Shown: positions 284 through 53,069 of the stretch, piece by piece | Layout: every line of letters starts with the position of its first letter | Numbering within the stretch: position 1 is the first letter of the stretch | Origin: a virus | Strand: one strand, 5' to 3' | Length of the DNA stretch: 64,000 bases | Virus record (IMG/VR): IMGVR_UViG_3300045971_000356 | Span: 1 to 64,000 of that record | Program-made: the position numbers and the translations under genes | The notes under the pieces: generated by a model | Told to the model about the DNA's origin: nothing | The model's database searches: none | The model's input: only the letters and a program-made list of their open reading frames with translations

Positions 284-293
284 ATTCAATTTT

Positions 294-348
294 AGGGTGC
301 CTACAGCAATTAACCTCTTTCAATCAAGAACCAAATGTGCACCCTGTT
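294..348 (+). ncRNA. TACAGCAA-motif structured RNA, copy 1
   Basis: AGGGTGC...GCACCCT stem enclosing TACAGCAA and followed by GTT. Same layout at 3462-3522. Confidence 0.45.
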
Positions 349-353
349 GTTTT

Positions 354-3444: not shown

Positions 3445-3461
3445 AATGAGTATTTAGTTTT

Positions 3462-3522
3462 AGGATAGTTACAGCAACTCAAAAGCTAACTATGGTTGTC
3501 TAGCGACAAAAGCTATCCTGTT
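3462..3522 (+). ncRNA. TACAGCAA-motif structured RNA, copy 2
   Basis: AGGATAG...CTATCCT stem, TACAGCAA and trailing GTT. The stem covaries with copy 1. Confidence 0.45.
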
Positions 3523-3530
3523 ATATTTTA

Positions 3531-3679: not shown

Positions 3680-4435
3680 ATGTTTACGTGCAAACATTGT
3701 AAAAAAGAATTTCTGGGATTATCTACAGCTAATAAAGCTAACCATTCAAGGTGGTGTTCAGAAAATCCTAAACGAGCTAGTTATACTGCACCACCAGAGT
3801 TAAACTCCCCTGAGGCAATTCAAAAACGAAACATTAGCATTAAAAAAGCCTGGGCTGATGGTAAGTATGACAACATTCTTAACAAAGGAAATCATGGTTA
3901 CAGACATACTGCGCAGTCTAAAGAAGCTATCAGTAAAAAAGCATTAGCATCTAAACATAGAAGGTTGGTAAGATCTGTCAGGGAATATACAACACGTGAC
4001 GGCACTAAAATTATGCTTGATTCATCTTGGGAAGAAGCATTGGCAATTAGATTAGATGAATTAAACATAAACTGGATAAGACCAGATATCCCAATTCCGT
4101 ATATTACTGCTGATGGTAAGACACATAATTATTTTCCGGACTTTTATTTGCCGGACTTTGATTTATATCTTGATCCAAAAAACCCAGCAGCAATAAATGC
4201 TCAGGCAGAAAAGTTATCTATTATTACAAAAATTATGCCAAACTTAGTGATAATAGGCAGTTTATTAGAATGCAATAACTATTCGATTCCTGGTGGGCGG
4301 ACCAAAGAATTTAAGAACAATAATAAGAATAATAAATACACATATTGCGTGGTTAGGTTAATGGTAAACTCAGACGTTGCCAACGTTTATACAGGGGTTC
4401 GATTCCCCTACCCCGCACCAAATTTTAGCTCTTGA
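3680..4435 (+). CDS. TnsA-like PD-(D/E)xK homing endonuclease with NUMOD3-like motif
   Basis: DSSWEEALAIRLD...IPY...HNYFPDFYLPDFDLYLDPK. The frame reads through a tRNA 3' remnant and tRNA-Gly. Confidence 0.8.
   Translation: MFTCKHCKKEFLGLSTANKANHSRWCSENPKRASYTAPPELNSPEAIQKRNISIKKAWADGKYDNILNKGNHGYRHTAQSKEAISKKALASKHRRLVRSVREYTTRDGTKIMLDSSWEEALAIRLDELNINWIRPDIPIPYITADGKTHNYFPDFYLPDFDLYLDPKNPAAINAQAEKLSIITKIMPNLVIIGSLLECNNYSIPGGRTKEFKNNNKNNKYTYCVVRLMVNSDVANVYTGVRFPYPAPNFSS
4282..4304 (+). pseudogene. 3' remnant of interrupted tRNA-Arg(TCG)
   Basis: TTCGATTCCTGG TGGGCGG ACCA. TGGGCGG pairs with CTGCCTA at 3531. Confidence 0.75.
4347..4420 (+). tRNA. tRNA-Gly(GCC)
   Basis: AGACG-TTGCCAA-CGTTT, T-arm, CCA. 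Confidence 0.85.
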
Positions 4436-8319: not shown

Positions 8320-8661
8320 ATGAACATCAATATAGACCCAGCGTTTTTAACATCAGTTACTATTCATAAAGAATGGAGCATGTTTGGGCATAAAACAGAG
8401 CTAACTGAAGATGAGCTAGTTAAAGTCCTTAAAAACGAGGATAAATGCTCGTCAATCTCAAGTGAAGATCACCCTGAGTTTGCGAAAGTAAGAGAACAGC
8501 TAGGTAAAGACGGATACATAGAAATACAACGCAGTTGGTGGAACGGCGATCGTGTAACGAAAGCATTTACATTTAACGGCGCAAAATTTAAAAAAGGTGA
8601 GCAATTTCCAAGTGGTTGTGCAATGGCAGGCTACTTAAAGTTCACTAAGAAAGTAAAATAA
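8320..8661 (+). CDS. hypothetical protein
   Basis: Clean ORF. Confidence 0.6.
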   Translation: MNINIDPAFLTSVTIHKEWSMFGHKTELTEDELVKVLKNEDKCSSISSEDHPEFAKVREQLGKDGYIEIQRSWWNGDRVTKAFTFNGAKFKKGEQFPSGCAMAGYLKFTKKVK

Positions 8662-8664
8662 TAA

Positions 8665-8742
8665 GCCACTGTAGGCAAATCGGAAAAGTCGGCTGTCTCA
8701 AAAGCAGTTATTCTGTGGGTTCGAATCCCACCAGTGGCACCA
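8665..8742 (+). tRNA. tRNA-Leu(CAA)
   Basis: GCTGT-CTCAAAA-GCAGT, GCCACTG/CAGTGGC-ACCA. Confidence 0.9.
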
Positions 8743-8765
8743 AAATCAATTCAGCTAAATACTAG

Positions 8766-9455
8766 ATGCTTAAATTTTTATCTAAACTGCTTAATAAACC
8801 GCTTTTTAAACAAGAAGAAGCAGGCCCAACTGTCATTGACGAAGTTCGCATGAATTTAGATGATAGAAAAGCGTGGCGCCGGAAGATGGTATACTCTGCA
8901 ATACGCGAAACAATGACATCAGTTGGTGTCGTTGGATCAACATACAGATTTAAGTTGTCACAAGTTGATGATCGTGGGCACATTTATGCAGTGATGATTG
9001 ACATAAAGAAAAGTTTCACAATAAATCCATTGTCACAAGTAAAAGGATTTTTGGGCATTGAAAAATTAATTGTAAAAACTGCATTTGACAAATATGGAAT
9101 CACTGTAACTTCAGTATACTGGAGAACAGTGGAAGAAAAAGTTAACAAGGTTATTAAGAAAACAGTGGAATTAAAATCAGTCCCACCTAAACTTAAAGAT
9201 ATAGAAGTCATTGACGACAAAGATTTTGGCCCAGTAAGCGAGTTTGAACGCGAGCAATTCATGCAAGCAATTACACTTGGTATGCGTCCCAAGCCGTTAA
9301 CTATAGACGACAAAGCGTATTACTCTGATGTAATGCCACTTGAGGCTGCAAAGAAAGCAGTAGAGATAGATTTTGACTTGTCAGTGCCTGGCATAGTCGC
9401 TAGCTCAATCCAGTATTCAACTCAGCCTGGTGAGTTAACCGCAAAAAACAAATAA
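8766..9455 (+). CDS. host-like conserved hypothetical protein
   Basis: RRKMVYSAIRETMTSVGVVGSTYRFK...VMIDI...VYWR resembles, from memory, a Comamonadaceae-type hypothetical family. Confidence 0.55.
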   Translation: MLKFLSKLLNKPLFKQEEAGPTVIDEVRMNLDDRKAWRRKMVYSAIRETMTSVGVVGSTYRFKLSQVDDRGHIYAVMIDIKKSFTINPLSQVKGFLGIEKLIVKTAFDKYGITVTSVYWRTVEEKVNKVIKKTVELKSVPPKLKDIEVIDDKDFGPVSEFEREQFMQAITLGMRPKPLTIDDKAYYSDVMPLEAAKKAVEIDFDLSVPGIVASSIQYSTQPGELTAKNK

Positions 9456-10123: not shown

Positions 10124-10197
10124 GTGATATAGCATAGACAGATATGCAGGGGTCTCATAAGCCTCACAGGAAGGAGCGTTGCCTTCTATCACCACCA
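10123..10197 (+). tRNA. tRNA-Met(CAT)
   Basis: GGTGATA/TATCACC-ACCA, loop CTCATAA, non-canonical T-loop. Confidence 0.75.
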
Positions 10198-10208
10198 GTA
10201 AATACTTA

Positions 10209-11816
10209 ATGCGATTATGGTTTTTAATCTTTTTAGCACTCACATTGCTACCTGCTTACGCTCAAGACACGAGCCAACCGCAGGTAGTTTTTTCTGCGAT
10301 TAAAGATACTGACCAGCCCATTGAAGTACAGATGGAGACAGCAAGAGAGGCACTTAGGAACAATGACTTTGATACAGCAATAACCATACTGAATACAGTG
10401 CTGCTACTACCTAACAATAAGTTTACACAAGAGGCGCAAGCCCGCATTGGATTTGCGTACGAGAGATCTAAAAAGTACTCTAAAGCAATAGGCGAGTATA
10501 ACGCTTACATTGCCATGTATCCCAACAGCGGCATAGTGGAGTCAATGCGTAGGCGTTTACTGGCGCTTGAGATTTTAACGCCACAGCACGATGTAGCAAA
10601 AGCAATACCCGATGGACCGCGACAAATAAAAGAGCATAAAGTGGAAGCATCGAGCTCTACTTATTACATTGCTTCAGGTACTGACTCAACCTTGATTTCC
10701 AATGTACATGCGAACGGTGTGTTCAAAGATAATGAATACACTACAAAAGTAGTAGTGCGAGAAAATGTACACACTGACATTAAACCTAAAGTTGAATCTA
10801 AATACACGCTCAACACTGCCACTGTTGAAATTGAAAACAGTTATAAAGACTGGGAATTAAAACTTGGACGACAATCTTCTGATTACGGTGTAATGTCTAA
10901 GTTTGATGGTATAGCTGCAACGTATGGGTACGGGCACGACACTGAGTACACCTTAGTGCTCGGACAGCCATTAATGAACAATGCAACATCATCACGTAAA
11001 ATGTTTGGTCTTCACACTCACTTTAACTTAGGTGAGTTTACGTCAGCCACTGCATACTACAACCACCAAACTGCTGACAATTTTGAAGAGCGCTCAGCAT
11101 TGGGCACAGAGTTTAGGTACTTTAAGAACGAACTATCCGTGACAGCAGCAGCAGAGTACGACATAGCATATCAGCAACTAAACTCAGTGACATTTAACGC
11201 TCATAAAGACAACAACTCTAATAGATGGTTTGTGCTATACGATCGCAGAAAGTCTCCTGTGCTGTATGCCGACAAGGCGTTGGCACTGGGGTTGTTTAAC
11301 GGAGCAAACATGCCATATAATTCTATTGCAGAGGCATTAGCAAGGTCTGGTATGACAGCAAGCGAGTTGCGTGATTACATTGTGTCAGAAACAGCAGTGT
11401 CGTCAACATTTGCAATAGGTGGAGCAATAGCAGTAAACACATGGACCTTAGGTGGTGATATACAATCTGCAACAATGACAGGAACTGGTACCGAGCCGCA
11501 GTCATCTAAGATTAACTCAATATCGTTAAACGCATTTAACCCGAATGCTTTTCTAAAGCATTCAGTTAACGCTATTGTATCTTACTCTACGTCAGAAAAC
11601 GGTATATATACATTGACATTGTTAGACAGCACCGATATAGCAAAAATAAGATTAGACACTACTGCTCGTATTACTAACAAACAAAACAAACTATTATCGT
11701 TTAGTACACATCATAAACTGACTAAGGATGCGTTTTTAGAACTTCAACTTATGCTAAGTAAGATACGAGACGAGATAGACAAAACATTTATTTTAGGGTT
11801 TAGATATGAGTTTTAG
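10209..11816 (+). CDS. TPR-domain plus large beta-barrel outer-membrane protein (putative porin of a porin-cytochrome conduit)
   Basis: Signal peptide ending ...PAYA, TPR helices (EAQARIGFAYERSKKYSKAIGEYNAYIAMYP), many amphipathic strands and C-terminal LGFRYEF. Confidence 0.8.
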   Translation: MRLWFLIFLALTLLPAYAQDTSQPQVVFSAIKDTDQPIEVQMETAREALRNNDFDTAITILNTVLLLPNNKFTQEAQARIGFAYERSKKYSKAIGEYNAYIAMYPNSGIVESMRRRLLALEILTPQHDVAKAIPDGPRQIKEHKVEASSSTYYIASGTDSTLISNVHANGVFKDNEYTTKVVVRENVHTDIKPKVESKYTLNTATVEIENSYKDWELKLGRQSSDYGVMSKFDGIAATYGYGHDTEYTLVLGQPLMNNATSSRKMFGLHTHFNLGEFTSATAYYNHQTADNFEERSALGTEFRYFKNELSVTAAAEYDIAYQQLNSVTFNAHKDNNSNRWFVLYDRRKSPVLYADKALALGLFNGANMPYNSIAEALARSGMTASELRDYIVSETAVSSTFAIGGAIAVNTWTLGGDIQSATMTGTGTEPQSSKINSISLNAFNPNAFLKHSVNAIVSYSTSENGIYTLTLLDSTDIAKIRLDTTARITNKQNKLLSFSTHHKLTKDAFLELQLMLSKIRDEIDKTFILGFRYEF

Positions 11817-12318
11817 CAAGTTACTGATTGTAATATTTGTAAGTTGGTATGTTACACCTTCTATAGCAGCAGAATGTACCGCGTACGAAAAATCGCACCC
11901 ATCATTTTTGCTTGACGGAGCACACTTGTCCACGGGTAAGTGCCAAACGTGCGCAAGCTGTCACATCAACAGTATCTTCAACGGCACACCACGCTCATGC
12001 GTAACATGCCACAATGGAGATCCAGCACGTAACACCATTGGGAGACCAGCGTTACACATACCTACACAGCTTATCGAGTGTAATGCCTGCCACAAAACGG
12101 TATCATTTGCTACATCTGTTACTATGAATCACGTTATACTCGGGTCAGTGAAATGTACAACATGCCACTCAACAGCAAGCCCGCGATATCTTGGCAACCA
12201 GCAACGCATGTCGTTAACTCACGATCAGCGAACACCGGTGCCCACAGACTGCTCACAAGTTGGGTGCCACCGCCCCGGCGGTACAAAAGGTGTGCTATAC
12301 AAAAGTTGGGACAACTAA
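11806..12318 (+). CDS. secreted multiheme cytochrome c (4 CxxCH plus 1 CX4CH)
   Basis: Signal peptide; CASCH, CVTCH, CNACH, CTTCH and CSQVGCH. Confidence 0.9.
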   Translation: MSFSKLLIVIFVSWYVTPSIAAECTAYEKSHPSFLLDGAHLSTGKCQTCASCHINSIFNGTPRSCVTCHNGDPARNTIGRPALHIPTQLIECNACHKTVSFATSVTMNHVILGSVKCTTCHSTASPRYLGNQQRMSLTHDQRTPVPTDCSQVGCHRPGGTKGVLYKSWDN

Positions 12319-12408
12319 TCAGACTAAATAACTATGCTTTTAAGTTTTGACTAAGAACGCCTAAATAATTATGACCACTTGGTCATTACACATTAGGACG
12401 TTTATACC

Positions 12409-13137
12409 ATGCTTAAAAAGATATTACTTAGTTTAGCACTTATTGTAGCGGGCACATTGGGAACTGCTACTACAGCATCTGCGGCAGAATGTACCTTATA
12501 TGAGCAATCCCACCCAGCGTTCTTATTGGACGGGGCTCATCTATCAACTGGGCAATGCAACACCTGTGCATCATGTCACAAAGGTGGTGTATTTGTGGGT
12601 ACTCCAAAATCATGTACTGCGTGTCACAACGGTGACCCAGCAAGAACTACAGTAGGTAGGTCAGCATTACACATTCCAACACAGTTAACTGAATGTTCTT
12701 ACTGCCACCGCACAACTGCGTTTACGACCAACGTAAACATGGACCACACGCAAGTAACTCAGCAACGTTGCGACACTTGCCACAATGGATCATACTTGAA
12801 CTACGGTAAAAACTACGGTGGAGCAAAACAAAAAGGTCCATTGCACATTCCAACTACTGCTGATTGTTCATCGTGCCACACTACACAAAGCTGGTTAGTT
12901 AACCACGCAACAATCCATGCTGGCGTGACTACAGGTTGCGTAAACTGCCACAACGGCACTTACGCACCAGGCAAATCATCGTATGCTGCTGGACACCCAG
13001 TAACATCTGATGCTTGCGAAACTTGCCACAGCATTGATAACGCATTCAAGTGCGCCTCTGCTTACGACAAAGTAAAAGAATTCTTTGCGGTGTTGATACA
13101 CAAGGCAAAGATTTATTCCAACCATGCGTTTGCTTAG
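12409..13137 (+). CDS. secreted heptaheme cytochrome c, paralog of the upstream gene
   Basis: Signal peptide; CASCH, CTACH, CSYCH, CDTCH, CSSCH, CVNCH and CETCH. Confidence 0.92.
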   Translation: MLKKILLSLALIVAGTLGTATTASAAECTLYEQSHPAFLLDGAHLSTGQCNTCASCHKGGVFVGTPKSCTACHNGDPARTTVGRSALHIPTQLTECSYCHRTTAFTTNVNMDHTQVTQQRCDTCHNGSYLNYGKNYGGAKQKGPLHIPTTADCSSCHTTQSWLVNHATIHAGVTTGCVNCHNGTYAPGKSSYAAGHPVTSDACETCHSIDNAFKCASAYDKVKEFFAVLIHKAKIYSNHAFA

Positions 13138-13561
13138 TTTCAAAGACCTATATATTCTATCATCAGATTGGCATGTAAGTTATTGGACAGGTGTAGTTTG
13201 CGGCATAATAATGCTGCTATTGTTTACGTACCCGATTCGCAAATATTTCTTTGCGATTCGTGGTATCGGTAAAATGTCAACATGGTTTAACGCACACGTG
13301 GTGTTAGGCACTGCGATGACATTTCTGTTGATTTACCATACTAACTTTTTCCATACTCACTCGTTAAACGGTACCTTTGCCTTTTACAGCATTGTGGCAG
13401 TAGTAGCAAGCGGATTTGTGGGAAGGTATATTTTGCGTAGAGTACATAATCACAAATTTTGGGCTGACTTGTTCAAACATTGGCATGTAGCGCATGTACC
13501 CGTGATTTATATGTCGCTGGTTCTTGTGTTGATTCACGTTTATGCTATCCACGTATATTAA
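13124..13561 (+). CDS. four-helix inner-membrane His-rich protein (cytochrome b / ferric-reductase-like)
   Basis: Four hydrophobic segments with WFNAHVVLG, YHTNF, HWHVAHVP and LIHVYAIH. Confidence 0.7.
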   Translation: MRLLSFKDLYILSSDWHVSYWTGVVCGIIMLLLFTYPIRKYFFAIRGIGKMSTWFNAHVVLGTAMTFLLIYHTNFFHTHSLNGTFAFYSIVAVVASGFVGRYILRRVHNHKFWADLFKHWHVAHVPVIYMSLVLVLIHVYAIHVY

Positions 13562-13564
13562 CGC

Positions 13565-13593
13565 TTGACTTTGGGCTGATTCTGCGCTATAAT
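13565..13593 (+). promoter_or_regulatory. sigma70 promoter P1
   Basis: TTGACT-17 nt-TATAAT. Confidence 0.85.
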
Positions 13594-13650
13594 AAGCACT
13601 TAGACGCAAAGAAAACAATGTTTTTAGGCAATAAAAAGCAGAAAAACTAG

Positions 13651-13679
13651 TTGACTAGCGCAGTAAATAGTGTTATAAT
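13651..13679 (+). promoter_or_regulatory. sigma70 promoter P2
   Basis: TTGACT-17 nt-TATAAT. Confidence 0.85.
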
Positions 13680-13716
13680 AAACACTTAACGCAGTAAATG
13701 ATCGAGTTAGCTGCTA

Positions 13717-13731
13717 GCATTCATTAACAAT
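13717..13731 (+). promoter_or_regulatory. boxA-like antitermination site
   Basis: GCATTCATTAACAAT resembles rrn boxA (TGCTCTTTAACA) and lies just downstream of the tandem promoters. Confidence 0.5.
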
Positions 13732-13772
13732 ATAAGTAGACAGATTCCTTACGCTACAAGCGGGTGTAAGGA

Positions 13773-14832
13773 GTCATTTTGAAGTATTTTAGTTTGAACG
13801 TAAGTACATCCGAGGTGATCGAGGTTGTCCACTACCAGTATTGCTAAAGTATTTCAAAATGATTATCCCATGACAATAGCGCAACGATAGGGTACGCTTG
13901 CGATAGAACGACAATAGCAGCACGATATTATGGGATGTCATTTTGAAGTATCGTAGGTGATCCGAACCGTAGGCGACAATGCCAGACGAAGGTGATCTGG
14001 ACGGTATTTCAAAATGAGCTTTATTGTAAGCCAGTGTGGTACGCTGGTTAGCCGGATTGTGCGACAAGCAATAAAGAATCATTTTTAAGGGTACTCGCAG
14101 GTAATGGCAAGTTGGGAGGCCATCCAGATAAACCGTGGCCACGGTCTGGGTCTGTAGTCTTAGGTTCGAATCCTTTGTATCCTTCAAAATGATTTTTGTG
14201 AAAGTAAGGGGCGGTACCGTTGTGTGCCGAAAGACGGAGTCACTTCAGTTGTAAGACCGTGTAAAATCTTCCATTGCTCAGAAATCGCAAATCATTTTAG
14301 AGTGCACCAATGCGCCGTACACGCAGATACAGTGGAGTGTAGCCCGACGTTTGATATGTTGGGTCTGGCAGGTTCAAATCCTGCGAAGTGTACTCTAAAA
14401 TGATTATGTCAGTTGTTAAGTAGGTCATAGAATAGGGCAATCCAGTTTAGCGACCAGAGGACACTATTCAAACGGGACAGGTCGGGGCTCGGAATCTCGG
14501 ATGCTAACAACAAATCTTCATAAAGGGTTCTGCAGAACCTAGGTGTGGTCACAGCCTTTACTAAGGGCTTTCCGGTTCGATTCCGGGTGAGGATGACATG
14601 TCATTTTAAAGTATATCCACTACATTGGGTGATGCCAAATGGAAGATTAGGGAGTATCGTCCCGTTGGAATACTTTAAAATGATTTTATAGTTGAAGGCA
14701 CTGCGCGATTTGAGAAACACATCAGCTTGGTTGCTCTTGCACGATGTGAAAAGTCGGAATTTGTTCTAAGGGGCGTTCAACCTCTATACTGGGATGAAGG
14801 TAAAGTGTTTTGAACAGTGCCTTCAACTATAA
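13773..14832 (+). ncRNA. array of long-stem RNA cassettes with a shared terminal inverted repeat
   Basis: RTCATTTTNRAG...CTYNAAAATGA pairs at 13773-13863, 13937-14017, 14078-14193, 14291-14404 and 14600-14684, plus a related stem at 14686-14832. The spacers are also hairpins. Confidence 0.75.
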
Positions 14833-14842
14833 ATAATACTAC

Positions 14843-14962
14843 GCGAGTATGGTGGAATCGGTAGACACACCAGACTTCTACGGAACATCTGCTTAACGCG
14901 GGTGTTCAAAAAAATCTGACGGGGGCAACTCCATCCCGGTTCGACTCCGGGTACTCGCACCA
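14843..14962 (+). tRNA. tRNA-Leu(TAA) with 33-nt insert in the anticodon loop
   Basis: GCGAGTA/TACTCGC-ACCA and a Leu-type D-arm. CAGACTT[14878-14910]AAAATCTG restores CT-TAA-AA. Confidence 0.75.
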
Positions 14963-14968
14963 AGATTT

Positions 14969-15044
14969 GGGCTGTGATTGAGCTGGGGTTCTTGGCTGCT
15001 TTGCAAGCAGTTCTCGGTGGGTTCGATTCCCACACGGTCCACCA
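14969..15044 (+). tRNA. tRNA-Ala(TGC)
   Basis: GCTGC-TTTGCAA-GCAGT, G3-U70. Confidence 0.85.
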
Positions 15045-15104
15045 ATATTCTTGACAACACCGTACGATCAGCGTATGCTGTTGATAACTACTAAAGGAAA
15101 AATC

Positions 15105-15689
15105 ATGAAAACACTAAGTCTACTTATATTGTCTCTTACTGCTGGCGCAGCTCTTGCCCAGCCAATCAACAACTATCTCCCTGACGCAGATACACGAGTG
15201 CCTGAAGGTGCAAGTGGCCCTGGCATCGTGCATACGCAACGAGTGCTAGGCCGTGTTATTTCCATTGGTAATCCAGTGATGAAAAGCGTAGCGACGGGCA
15301 GAACATGCTATCCAACGCAGCAACCACAGTATCAGCAACAGCAGCAAAACGACTCCTCAATTAACCCAGGCACAATACTTGGTGCTATTGCGGGTGGCAT
15401 AGTTGGCAATCAAATTGGCGGTGGTGATGGCAACAAGGCAGCGGTGGCACTTGGTGCTGTAACGGGTGCAATGGTTGGTAACAACATGCATCAGCAACAG
15501 CAACCATCGCGTAATCAATATCAGCCAAATCAGCAGCAATGCGAGACTACGTTTGAACAACGTATCGTAGGCTATTCGTTTGTAGTGGAATACAACCAAC
15601 TACAAATGCAAGGATTTATGAACCGTCAGCCGCAGATTGGCGAGAGAGTGCAAGTTATTGTACGAAGCACATATTATCCAGGATTTTGA
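15105..15689 (+). CDS. glycine-zipper 2TM envelope protein
   Basis: GTILGAIAGGIVGNQIGGGDG..AAVALGAVTGAMVG. Upstream TTGACA-17-TATGCT at 15051. Confidence 0.85.
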   Translation: MKTLSLLILSLTAGAALAQPINNYLPDADTRVPEGASGPGIVHTQRVLGRVISIGNPVMKSVATGRTCYPTQQPQYQQQQQNDSSINPGTILGAIAGGIVGNQIGGGDGNKAAVALGAVTGAMVGNNMHQQQQPSRNQYQPNQQQCETTFEQRIVGYSFVVEYNQLQMQGFMNRQPQIGERVQVIVRSTYYPGF

Positions 15690-52416: not shown

Positions 52417-52710
52417 ATGAATAGAATTTTAGCGGCTTTGCTTATTGCTCTTGTAGTAATACCAGTGATGGCGAAAACAAACAAAAACGATAGTGCATAC
52501 ACTGAAAAGTATTCGTTTGAAGAAAAGATAAAAGATCAATACAATAACGGCAAAAATGATATAAATTTTGACAAAAATGAGTATGCAGATTATAGCAGCA
52601 GCAATGATCATTATACTCCGACAAGTCCAGTGCCAGAACCGACATCTTGGATGATGATGCTTGCCGGCGGAATAATAATTAACCGCCTTCGCAAAAAGAT
52701 GCATAAATAA
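52417..52710 (+). CDS. small PEP-CTERM surface protein
   Basis: Signal peptide; C-terminal VPEPTSW, hydrophobic stretch, RLRKK. Confidence 0.85.
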   Translation: MNRILAALLIALVVIPVMAKTNKNDSAYTEKYSFEEKIKDQYNNGKNDINFDKNEYADYSSSNDHYTPTSPVPEPTSWMMMLAGGIIINRLRKKMHK

Positions 52711-52715
52711 TATAT

Positions 52716-53035
52716 TGTTGTATATCCCTTCAAAGCGAAGGAATTCTGGACGGGGATGCGAATTCCCCCTCCTCCACCAAAAGTGCTCTAAATTGAGTAG
52801 TAATACTTGATCAGGTTTGGCATCCCGGGTAAACTCTCCAGCAATGGACTCGTCCGTATACGCCGTGAGTACTTTTGATGGGGGAGACTAGTTTCGACAG
52901 GGTTAGATAGTAGAGACGGCAACTCAGTAGGCGATGACTGTATAAATCAAGCAAATCAAACTAAAGGCAAACGATAGTTTATATTCCTTAGCCGCTTAAG
53001 GCATGGGTGGGGAGGCTGTACCCTGTAACACTTTA
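52716..53035 (+). ncRNA. ssrA: circularly permuted (two-piece) tmRNA
   Basis: Acceptor piece ends CTCCTCC-ACCA (52779) before the coding piece starting GGGGGAG (52880), with G3-U70. Tag ANDSLYSLAA* at 52967-52999. Confidence 0.9.
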
Positions 53036-53069
53036 GCAGAGACCCGCTTCACGGCGGGTTTCTTTTGCT
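53036..53069 (+). terminator. intrinsic terminator after tmRNA
   Basis: GAGACCCGC-TTCACG-GCGGGTTTC-TTTT. Confidence 0.8.

What the first reader, a model, noticed from the sequence alone, without database searches (positions are those of the whole stretch)
13565..14832. rRNA-operon-style promoter driving an array of long-stem small-RNA cassettes with a conserved terminal repeat and variable cargo
Seen: two TTGACT-17-TATAAT promoters and a boxA-like site precede about 1.1 kb with no credible ORF. Five units open with RTCATTTTNRAG and close with its complement (13773-13863, 13937-14017, 14078-14193, 14291-14404, 14600-14684), forming 16-20 bp stems that covary beyond the core. A sixth perfect stem is at 14686-14832. 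The interiors are unrelated to each other, and the inter-unit spacers are closed hairpins too (ATCCCAT/ATGGGAT, CTTTATTG/CAATAAAG, TTTGTGA/TCGCAAA, ATGTCA/TGACAT). This is not CRISPR, because the repeats are inverted pairs flanking cargo. Inference: a strong early polycistronic transcript is cut (RNase III-like) into about 10 distinct RNAs acting as decoys, sponges or guides, possibly against host defences or translation.
Basis: partly seen in the sequence, partly recalled or inferred. Interest (0 to 1): 0.85.

Follow-up and report, generated by a model that had tools for sequence, protein, structure and literature searches.

The report
Phage operon of handle-tagged small RNAs
A large T4-like phage carries, inside its tRNA island, a ribosomal-RNA-style operon of about ten small folded RNAs. 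Five of them are closed by the same conserved double-stranded "handle", an undescribed RNA family that in related phages sits directly behind the gene for a Ro60-like RNA-binding protein.

Summary
Two near-consensus sigma-70 promoters and a conserved boxA-like leader precede 1.1 kb without a credible ORF. It contains five units closed by UCAUUUUNRAG/CUYNAAAAUGA stems, a sixth long hairpin and four closed spacers.

The handle occurs nowhere else in the 166-kb record. No Rfam family matches, and canonical tRNA finders do not call the units, although U3, U4 and spacer S4 carry tRNA-like arms.

Homologous arrays occur in at least six other viral or metagenomic contigs, with units shuffled and compensatory changes. 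G·U pairs place the structure on the + strand.

In at least 23 other contigs, one copy lies 25-45 nt behind a DUF2828/DUF7788 gene and just ahead of a tRNA. The predicted fold of that protein family matches Ro60.

Most likely the transcript is processed into stable handle-tagged scaffold RNAs linked to the phage Ro60-like system (Y-RNA-like). Neither binding nor RNase III cutting was tested.

A caveat is that a different handle (WCAGCAA...CCUGUU) is the near-universal neighbour of that gene, and two copies lie in this window. The gene itself is absent from this partial record.

The scan has reported Ro60-like genes with handle-RNA arrays on other genomes. This duplex handle was not among the stretches it retrieved.

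The parts
13565..13593 (+). Promoter P1, TTGACT-17-TATAAT
   Evidence: It matches the consensus at 11/12 positions. It is one of 5 such sites in 64 kb, against 0.18 expected.
13651..13679 (+). Promoter P2, TTGACT-17-TATAAT with an extended -10 TG
   Evidence: Tandem promoters are also present in L014 and L040.
13718..13733 (+). BoxA-like leader element (AUUCAUUAACAAUAU)
   Evidence: It is conserved at the same leader position in L073 and L032 (GUUCCUUAACAAUAU) and in L014 (GUUCUUUAAAAAC). The resemblance to rrn boxA GCUCUUUAACAA rests on established knowledge.
13747..13771 (+). Leader hairpin CCUUAC/GUAAGG, abutting the first handle
   Evidence: Read from the sequence. An equivalent small hairpin precedes the handle in all single-copy loci.
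13773..13863 (+). U1: handle-B unit with a 21-bp closing stem; the cargo contains GAGGUGAUC
   Evidence: Fold z is -4.8. Orthologues occur in L073, L032 and L232. Of the 26 predicted pairs, 3 show compensatory change (2 in the closing stem), and the apical 25-30 nt diverge.
13864..13936 (+). S1: closed spacer RNA in which the direct repeat GACAAUAGCRSCACGAUA flanks a variable core
   Evidence: D8. Orthologues occur in L073 and L232, and the closing stem has compensatory changes.
13937..14017 (+). U2: handle-B unit carrying two AGGUGAUC motifs around a variable core
   Evidence: Fold z is -5.1. (D6). The L073 orthologue keeps both motifs, while the core differs.
14018..14077 (+). S2: closed spacer hairpin with a 9-bp closing stem CUUUAUUGU/GCAAUAAAG
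   Evidence: Fold z is -2.1. No orthologue was found.
14078..14193 (+). U3: handle-B unit with tRNA-like cargo (D-like arm, short anticodon-like arm, T-arm). It has a window-specific 12-nt insertion.
   Evidence: Alignment with L097 and L032. In L097 the T-stem reads AAAGG/CCUUU with loop UUCGACU. Standard tRNA finders do not call it.
14194..14290 (+). S3: conserved 95-nt spacer RNA
   Evidence: It lies within a segment 85% identical to L097. Within S3 itself only a handful of positions differ.
14291..14404 (+). U4: handle-B unit with tRNA-like cargo (T-arm GCAGG/CCUGC)
   Evidence: Fold z is -6.9. In the L032 orthologue the T-stem pair G-C becomes A-U. ARAGORN calls it only at an 80% threshold.
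14405..14599 (+). S4: 195-nt RNA made of a 5' stem domain and a 3' tRNA-like domain. The 3' domain has an 8-9 bp acceptor stem, a 4-bp T-stem and a 6-bp D-stem with a 4-nt loop. Its anticodon arm is truncated.
   Evidence: RNAalifold on the window, L040 and L097 predicts 48 pairs, 23 of them with compensatory changes.
14600..14684 (+). U5: handle-B unit
   Evidence: Arms of 14 nt are 100% complementary (I7). Fold z is -4.5. No cargo orthologue was found.
14685..14833 (+). U6: 149-nt RNA closed by a perfect 19-bp stem that is not handle B
   Evidence: I1. It is 85% identical to L073 4605-4757, and 42 pairs are conserved.
14843..14962 (+). tRNA with anticodon CUA, a long variable arm and a 31-nt insertion in the anticodon loop. 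It is the first canonical tRNA of the same transcription unit.
   Evidence: Rfam tRNA, 42.4 bits. ARAGORN run with the intron option.
14969..15044 (+). tRNA-Ala(UGC)

Best explanation
The region is a noncoding operon inside the phage's tRNA island.

Shown from sequence and comparison:
- Two tandem near-consensus sigma-70 promoters precede a boxA-like leader, about ten independently closed RNA domains and two tRNAs.
- No intrinsic terminator on the + strand lies in between.
- Five domains share 'handle B', a duplex of 12-17 bp (5'-UCAUUUUNRAG... paired with ...CUYNAAAAUGA-3'). It carries interchangeable apical cargo. Some cargo is tRNA-like (U3, U4). Some consists of conserved motifs around a hypervariable core (U1, U2).

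Inferred mechanism:
- Host RNA polymerase, made termination-resistant through boxA, produces one precursor.
- Endonucleases release stable small RNAs. RNase P acts at the tRNA 5' ends, and a double-strand-specific activity such as host RNase III acts in or at the handles.
- Handle B serves as the common docking or processing module of scaffold RNAs that belong to the phage's Ro60-like ribonucleoprotein system. In that sense they work like Y RNAs: a conserved terminal helix plus a variable module, sometimes tRNA-like.
For: 1. Structure is real and RNA-level.
- Fold z-scores reach -6.9.
- Across 34 distinct units, handle position 7 covaries (A-U 10, G-C 18, C-G 2, U-A 1). Positions 10 and 13 alternate between G-C and G.U and between U-A and U.G, which pair only on the + strand.
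- S4 has 23 compensatory pairs.

2. The units are conserved and modular.
- Homologous arrays occur in L073, L032, L097, L014/L040 and L232.
- Unit order differs: U2-U1-S1 in L073 against U1-S1-U2 here.

3. Handle B is linked to the Ro60-like gene.
- Motif-only scans returned 16 single-copy units. Fifteen of them lie 25-45 nt after the stop codon of a 470-480 aa DUF2828/DUF7788 gene, on the same strand. The sixteenth, L235, shows no phage context and looks like a chance match.
- Eight more such loci are L115, L117, L177, L201, L184, L156 and L196 and L319. L156 and L196 carry a one-base variant core.
- The tRNA downstream varies: Gly-UCC, Leu-UAA, Ser-GCU or Gly-GCC.
- Other ORF-to-tRNA junctions in the same islands lack the element.
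- In the protein tree, 9 of the 10 rows of one clade (support 94/99) carry the adjacent handle. The tenth, G009, carries a diverged handle that still pairs.

4. The protein is Ro60-like. The 13 Foldseek matches with E <= 0.001 are all Ro60/TROVE structures, aligned over the full length (E from 6e-8). A DxSxS MIDAS motif is kept.

5. Array-bearing relatives encode the protein. In G001 (estimated 100% complete) and G003 the gene lies 12-15 kb from the array.

6. The window itself holds two RNAs with the other handle that accompanies this gene family, at 293-350 and 3459-3525.
Against: - No Ro60-like gene is found in the 166-kb record. The record is an estimated 47% of the genome. The gene's usual neighbour, a gene resembling T4 gp32, is also missing.
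- Handle B has no bulged helix. It also lacks the GNCGAA(N)G motif described for Ro60 binding (PMC4201824).
- A different handle, UUUUAGG-N6-WCAGCAA...CCUGUU, is the near-universal neighbour of this gene. There are 168 units on the gene strand and 0 on the other, and 73 of 75 loci have at least one. Handle B may therefore not be the protein's primary partner.
- 79 of 80 loci chosen by the protein lack an exact handle B next to the gene.
- Several large Ro-like-bearing phages lack the exact motif, including a complete 364-kb genome. Diverged versions escape that pattern, as G009 shows.
- In the single-copy loci the gene, the handle and the tRNA are always adjacent, so shared descent could explain the linkage.
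- No expression or binding data could be obtained.
Confidence: 0.42

Rival explanations
1. The handles are pure processing and stability cassettes. Handle B would be a host RNase III site (or a 3'-end protective hairpin) that excises or stabilises unrelated small RNAs from an rRNA-style precursor, in the way flanking stems release 16S and 23S rRNA. It would have no functional tie to the Ro60-like protein, and the adjacency would reflect shared ancestry of the tRNA island.
For: - The duplexes are 16-21 bp and almost perfectly paired.
- The context is rrn-like, with tandem promoters and a boxA-like element.
- Some phages have a bare 17-bp hairpin without cargo (L115, L117, L177, L201).
- In single-copy loci the hairpin ends 2-5 nt before a tRNA 5' end. 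RNase P cleavage would therefore leave it as a protective 3' end on the upstream mRNA.
- A different handle is the regular neighbour of the Ro-like gene.
Against: - A stabiliser or RNase III stem does not need 12-15 bp of conserved sequence across proteins only 64-70% identical.
- Other ORF-to-tRNA junctions in the same islands lack the element.
- The spacers between units are closed by unrelated stems, so a common sequence is not needed for closure.
- No phage RNase III gene is present, which is neutral if the host enzyme is used.
Confidence: 0.3
2. One reading: the released RNAs act as decoys, sponges or guides against host defences or translation. One version is SD-like AGGUGAUC loops that titrate the 16S rRNA 3' end. 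Another is tRNA-like cargo that decoys tRNA-targeting nucleases.
For: - AGGTGATC occurs 6 times in 166 kb, and 3 of these lie within 185 nt of U1 and U2.
- Both copies in U2 are conserved in L073.
- The motif is complementary to the 16S 3' end GAUCACCU (established knowledge).
- Orthologous units keep the scaffold but replace the inner 20-30 nt.
- Some cargo is tRNA-like but lacks a usable anticodon arm.
Against: - The cargo shows no complementarity of 14 nt or more to the phage's own genome beyond T-arm similarity.
- The host is unknown, so host targets cannot be tested.
- AGGUGAUC is absent from the U1 orthologues in L073, L032 and L232.
- Variable cores may simply be unconstrained loops.
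Confidence: 0.12
3. The units are decayed tRNA genes or a MITE-like mobile palindrome that spread within the tRNA island, without RNA function.
For: - T-arm remnants occur in the cargo.
- An 11-nt stretch is identical between the U3 5' end and a tRNA 3' end (D3 and D14).
- Unit order is shuffled between phages.
Against: - Copies occur at one locus only in the 166-kb and 192-kb records.
- There is strand-specific G.U covariation.
- Scaffolds are conserved at 80-95% between phages whose flanking DNA does not align.
- There are dedicated promoters and an antitermination leader.
Confidence: 0.05

Closest known systems
Ro60 (Rsr) with Y RNAs: bacterial and mycobacteriophage YrlA/YrlB (Chen et al. 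2014, PMC4201824) and Thermus phage phiLo Ro60 with Yrl1/Yrl2 (PMC12135203)
   Same: - In relatives, small RNAs are encoded on the same strand next to a Ro60-fold protein gene.
- The 5' and 3' ends pair into a conserved terminal helix.
- The variable module is in some copies tRNA-like, with a T-arm and a D-like arm.
- There are several paralogues per genome.
   Different: - The protein is a divergent branch (Pfam DUF2828/DUF7788, no TROVE Pfam hit) and is not seen on this partial record.
- The handle is a perfect AU-rich duplex without a bulge or a CGAA motif.
- There is no match to any Rfam model at E <= 10.
- The tRNA-like part is attached through its acceptor stem.
- Here the array is unlinked from the gene and driven by rrn-style signals.
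- A second, different handle (WCAGCAA) is the gene's regular neighbour.
rRNA operon architecture: tandem P1/P2 promoters, boxA antitermination, and RNase III cleavage in long stems formed by flanking sequences (established knowledge)
   Same: - Tandem strong sigma-70 promoters 86 bp apart.
- A boxA-like leader.
- Structured RNAs each enclosed by a long duplex.
- tRNAs in the same transcript.
   Different: - The products are 80-195 nt RNAs of unknown function, not rRNA.
- The same duplex sequence is reused five times.
- Cleavage has not been shown.
Stable small RNAs of unknown function in phage tRNA clusters (T4 species 1 and 2, also called RNA C and D; from my own knowledge, not checked here)
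   Same: Non-tRNA stable RNAs are co-transcribed and co-processed with phage tRNAs.
   Different: No sequence or Rfam relationship was found. T4 has no Ro60-like gene and no repeated handle.
Non-canonical tRNAs with an 8/4 or 9/3 acceptor/T branch and tRNASec-like D-arms ('allo-tRNAs', Mukai et al. 2017, PMC5389517)
   Same: The 3' domain of S4 has an 8-9 bp acceptor stem, a 4-bp T-stem and a 6-bp D-stem with a 4-nt loop. All are supported by compensatory changes.
   Different: - S4 lacks a normal anticodon arm (3-bp mini-hairpin).
- It has no encoded CCA.
- It is preceded by a 120-nt 5' domain and closed by an outer stem.
- It is not called by the Rfam tRNA or tRNA-Sec models.

Membership tests
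Y RNA (Ro60-associated ncRNA, YrlA type) | Encoded within a few kb of a Ro60 orthologue on the same strand | tested here: inconclusive
   This feature is met for handle B in at least 23 related single-copy loci, 25-45 nt downstream. In the array-bearing relatives G001 and G003 the gene is 12-15 kb away. In this window's 166-kb partial record no such gene is found.
Y RNA (Ro60-associated ncRNA, YrlA type) | 5' and 3' ends pair into a terminal helix that holds the Ro60 site (bulged helix; GNCGAAN0-1G or GGUCCGA motif) | tested here: not met
   The terminal helix is present. It is fully paired, and its conserved sequence is UCAUUUUNRAG. GACGAAG occurs once, in the U2 cargo, but is not kept in the L073 orthologue.
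Y RNA (Ro60-associated ncRNA, YrlA type) | tRNA-like effector domain (T-arm plus D-arm) | tested here: inconclusive
   U3 and U4 (and S4) have T-arms with canonical T-loops and D-like arms. U1, U2 and U5 do not.
Y RNA (Ro60-associated ncRNA, YrlA type) | Match to the Rfam covariance model | tested here: not met
   The scan of 13400-15200 against all Rfam families at E <= 10 returned only the two tRNAs and one chance hit.
Y RNA (Ro60-associated ncRNA, YrlA type) | Physical binding to the Ro60 protein | not testable with these tools
   This needs gel-shift or RIP experiments. The complex predictor takes only proteins and listed ligands.
RNase III processing stems (rrn or T7 type) | About two turns of duplex formed by sequences flanking the product | tested here: met
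   Closing stems are 16-21 bp.
RNase III processing stems (rrn or T7 type) | Staggered double-strand cleavage by RNase III | not testable with these tools
   No read data could be obtained. No phage RNase III gene is present.
tRNA genes | Cloverleaf recognised by ARAGORN or the Rfam tRNA model | tested here: not met
   None of the units is called at standard settings. U4 and the 3' part of S4 appear only at an 80% threshold, and the anticodon arms proposed there are not conserved.
CRISPR array | Direct repeats of constant length separated by unique spacers | tested here: not met
   The repeats are inverted pairs that enclose the cargo.
WCAGCAA-handle RNAs next to DUF2828 genes (reported earlier by this scan; unpublished) | UUUUAGG-N6-WCAGCAA ... 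N6'-CCUGUU closing module | tested here: not met
   The motif is absent from 13500-15100. It is present elsewhere in the window, at 293-350 and 3459-3525.
MITE-like mobile palindromes | Many dispersed copies with similar interiors | tested here: not met
   All copies lie in one locus in G000 and in G001. The interiors differ.
Large structured RNAs (GOLLD, ROOL and similar) | Match to the Rfam model | tested here: not met

The most novel reading that the evidence does not exclude
Handle B marks a second, previously unrecognised class of partner RNAs of the phage Ro60-like particle. In large phages it would have been expanded into an rRNA-style, antiterminated 'cassette array'. The exchangeable, fast-evolving cargo (tRNA mimics, loops complementary to the 16S 3' end) would programme the particle towards different host RNAs or defence nucleases.
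Probability: 0.12. Interest if true: 0.85.

Novelty: new variant of a known kind. Interest (0 to 1): 0.66.

Why it matters
Phage tRNA islands are usually annotated as tRNAs plus unexplained gaps. Here about 1.1 kb of such a gap is a dedicated, strongly promoted operon of conserved structured RNAs. Their shared handle defines an RNA family that is absent from Rfam and was not found in the literature searched.

The family's linkage to a very abundant Ro60-like protein family (more than 7,800 homologues) gives a concrete, testable entry into what these phage ribonucleoproteins do. It could also explain how phages manipulate host RNA or tRNA metabolism.

If the link to Ro60 fails, the region still provides a clean natural example of a reusable RNA excision or stability cassette.

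Tried and rejected
- Rfam at gathering and at E <= 10 found nothing in the region.
- blastn of the region, and of a single-copy unit, against 50,697 phage records found no match.
- Loose pattern scans of the viral collection were swamped by chance hits: the first pattern and a 15-mer. L087, L225, L226 and L235 were chance matches.
- A scan for U6 found only L073.
- Searches of the own record for TROVE, DUF2828, DUF7788 and the L007 protein all came back empty.
- A look-up of exact copies of a neighbouring protein, made to find a longer assembly of this phage, found nothing on record.
- The exact handle-B pattern was sought in 10 other large records that carry the Ro-like gene. None showed a paired cluster. 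One of them (G009) turned out to have a diverged handle, so that test under-detects.
- Box C/D sRNA, retron msr/msd, type III toxin-antitoxin repeats, self-cleaving ribozymes and permuted tRNAs were considered and dropped. For each, the motif or a required partner is absent, or there is no Rfam hit.
- A tRNASec reading of S4 (ARAGORN at an 80% threshold) was rejected, because the proposed anticodon stem is not conserved in the orthologues.
- The 132-aa minus-strand ORF was rejected as coding (unit order is shuffled in relatives).
Full report
**What the window is.** The window is the first 64 kb of a 166-kb IMG/VR virus record, estimated to be 47% complete. It carries 22 tRNA genes and a two-piece tmRNA. 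Relatives encode a protein resembling T4 gp32, so this is a large T4-like phage. The finding lies inside its tRNA island.

**Checking the observation.**
- Both promoters are 11/12 matches to TTGACA-17-TATAAT. The pattern TTGACW-N16-18-TATAAT occurs 5 times in 64 kb, against 0.18 expected.
- No + strand intrinsic terminator lies between 13.3 and 15.3 kb. Transcription should therefore run through the array into a tRNA(CUA) at 14843-14962 and tRNA-Ala at 14969-15044.
They fold far better than shuffled sequence, with z from -4.0 to -6.9 for five of the six.
- The core 11-mer and its complement are essentially confined to this locus in 166 kb.
- The spacers S1, S2 and S4 are closed by their own stems. 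S3 is weakly closed but highly conserved.
- The one long ORF (132 aa, minus strand) has no family match. It spans units whose order is not conserved.

**What it is not.**
- No Rfam family matches, even at E <= 10.
- Standard tRNA finders do not call any unit.
- The repeats are inverted rather than direct, so this is not CRISPR.
- Copies are not dispersed, so this is not a MITE.

**Relatives.**
- Pattern scans recovered homologous arrays in L073 (a 192-kb record estimated complete), L032, L097, L014/L040 and L232.
- Orthology by blastn:
  - U1, S1, U2 and U6 have orthologues in L073.
  - U1, U3 and U4 have orthologues in L032.
  - U3, S3 and S4 have orthologues in L097.
  - S4 has orthologues in L040 and L014.
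  - The leader is shared with L014, L040 and L032.
- Unit order differs between phages, so the units behave as modules.
- The leader keeps a boxA-like UUCMUUAACAAUAU element.
- Structures are supported by compensatory changes, most strongly in S4 (48 pairs, 23 compensatory).
- In U1 and U2 the scaffold is conserved while the inner 20-30 nt are replaced.

**The handle as a family.**
- A specific two-sided pattern returned 10 viral and 10 metagenomic stretches.
- Over 34 distinct units the closing helix is 16-17 bp. Covariation is clear at position 7 (A-U, G-C, C-G, U-A). G.U alternatives would be A.C mismatches on the other strand.
- This places the function in an RNA made from the tRNA strand.
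- Some phages have only a bare 17-bp hairpin without cargo. The duplex itself is therefore the functional core.

**The protein link.**
- Of the 16 single-copy units from those two motif-only scans, 15 lie 25-45 nt after a 470-480 aa gene, preceded by a small hairpin. Most end 2-5 nt before a tRNA whose identity varies. The sixteenth, L235, has no phage context and looks like a chance match.
- Eight further loci show the same arrangement: L115, L117, L177, L201, L184, L156 and L196 from the earlier 15-mer scan and L319.
- The gene is Pfam DUF2828 + DUF7788 and phrog_850 'RNA-binding protein'. It is annotated 'Ro-like RNA binding protein' in some mycobacteriophages.
- An AlphaFold model (pLDDT 65) gives helical repeats plus a vWA domain with a MIDAS motif. 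Its 13 Foldseek matches with E <= 0.001 are all Ro60/TROVE proteins, aligned over the full length.
- The array-bearing relatives G001 and G003 encode it 12-15 kb from the array.
- In a protein tree, 9 of the 10 rows of one clade (support 94/99) carry the adjacent handle. The tenth, G009, carries a diverged handle that still pairs.

**Complications.**
- The protein gene is not on this partial record. Its usual neighbour is also missing, so absence cannot be concluded.
- When loci were chosen by the protein, 79 of 80 lacked handle B at the gene.
- Those loci showed a different module upstream: UUUUAGG-N6-WCAGCAA ... N6'-CCUGUU. There were 168 units on the gene strand and none on the other strand. 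At least one was present in 73 of 75 loci.
- Earlier notes of this scan had described such 'ACAGCAA' handles, which is where the lead came from. I re-derived it here.
- Two such RNAs lie in this window, at 293-350 and 3459-3525. This argues that the phage has the Ro60-like system.
- It also shows that handle B is not the system's universal RNA.

**Mechanism.**
- Shown:
  - rrn-style transcription signals;
  - about ten closed, conserved RNA domains;
  - a sequence-conserved duplex handle, acting at RNA level, with exchangeable cargo;
  - tRNA-like cargo in U3 and U4, and a tRNA-like domain in S4;
  - genetic linkage of the handle to a Ro60-fold protein gene and to tRNA 5' ends.
- Inferred:
  - processing into stable small RNAs, by RNase P at the tRNAs and by a double-strand-specific cut (probably host RNase III) at the handles;
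  - use of handle B as the docking or processing module of scaffold RNAs that work with the Ro60-like particle.
- The main rival is that handle B is only a processing or stability cassette.
- The decoy, sponge or guide idea has one hint. Three of the six AGGUGAUC sites in the record lie within 185 nt, and the motif is complementary to the 16S 3' end. Nothing supports guiding against the phage's own genome.

**Novelty.**
- Ro60 with Y RNAs is known in bacteria and in some phages (PMC4201824, PMC12135203).
- This scan has already reported DUF2828 genes with handle-tagged RNA arrays on other genomes.
- Handle B, its rrn-style array and its unlinked position were not retrieved by sequence from earlier findings. 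They were also not found in Rfam, in cultured phages or in the four literature searches that ran.
- I class the finding as a new variant of a known kind.

Noticed in passing
window 293-350 and 3459-3525 (+): Two small RNAs have the closing module UUUUAGG-N6-ACAGCAA ... N6'-CCUGUU. In 73 of 75 protein-selected loci the same module lies upstream of the Ro60-like gene on the gene strand (168 units against 0 on the other strand).
   Followed up: yes
window 14843-14962 (+): A tRNA with anticodon CUA (it would read UAG) has a long variable arm and a 31-nt insertion in the anticodon loop. This hints at stop-codon suppression or recoding late in infection.
   Followed up: partly
window 13813, 13955, 13990 (+): AGGTGATC is complementary to the 16S rRNA 3' end. 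It occurs 6 times in the 166-kb record, all on the + strand, and 3 of these lie within 185 nt in U1 and U2. Both U2 copies are conserved in L073.
   Followed up: partly
window 14089-14099 and 14949-14959: The first 11 nt of the U3 cargo (GGGTACTCGCA) are identical to the T-stem/acceptor 3' end of the neighbouring tRNA(CUA). This suggests that the cargo arose from tRNA pieces.
   Followed up: no
window 52666-53065 (+): A phage-encoded two-piece (permuted, beta-type) tmRNA, 119 bits.
   Followed up: no
window 10179-13561 (+): A TPR protein, two multihaem c-type cytochromes and a small membrane protein lie directly upstream of the RNA operon. Other notes of this scan describe them as a porin-cytochrome conduit.
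   Followed up: partly
L073 3010-3205, L232 (minus strand, about 8620-8850 in reverse-complement coordinates) and L032: A further RNA of about 190 nt, closed by GUUGUUAGG/CCUAACAAC, has its own promoter just upstream of the arrays in three relatives. It is absent at this position in the window.
   Followed up: no
L073 3858-3960: A tRNA-like gene has a GGGCUAA/UUGGUCC acceptor stem (G3.U70), a T-arm and an encoded CCA. ARAGORN does not call it.
   Followed up: no
L240 (Synechococcus phage BUCT-ZZ01, ON615601) 3995-4340: In a cultured cyanophage the Ro60-like gene is followed by tRNA-Met and two tRNA-like genes. Both carry the same insertion of about 40 nt (AACGCATTCTGTAAAGAATGAATTCTGCAATC).
   Followed up: no
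L284 4140-4330 (record G009): A diverged handle-B unit (UCAUUUAGAAAC.../...GUUUCUAAAUGA) lies behind the Ro60-like gene. It shows that exact-pattern scans under-count the family.
   Followed up: partly
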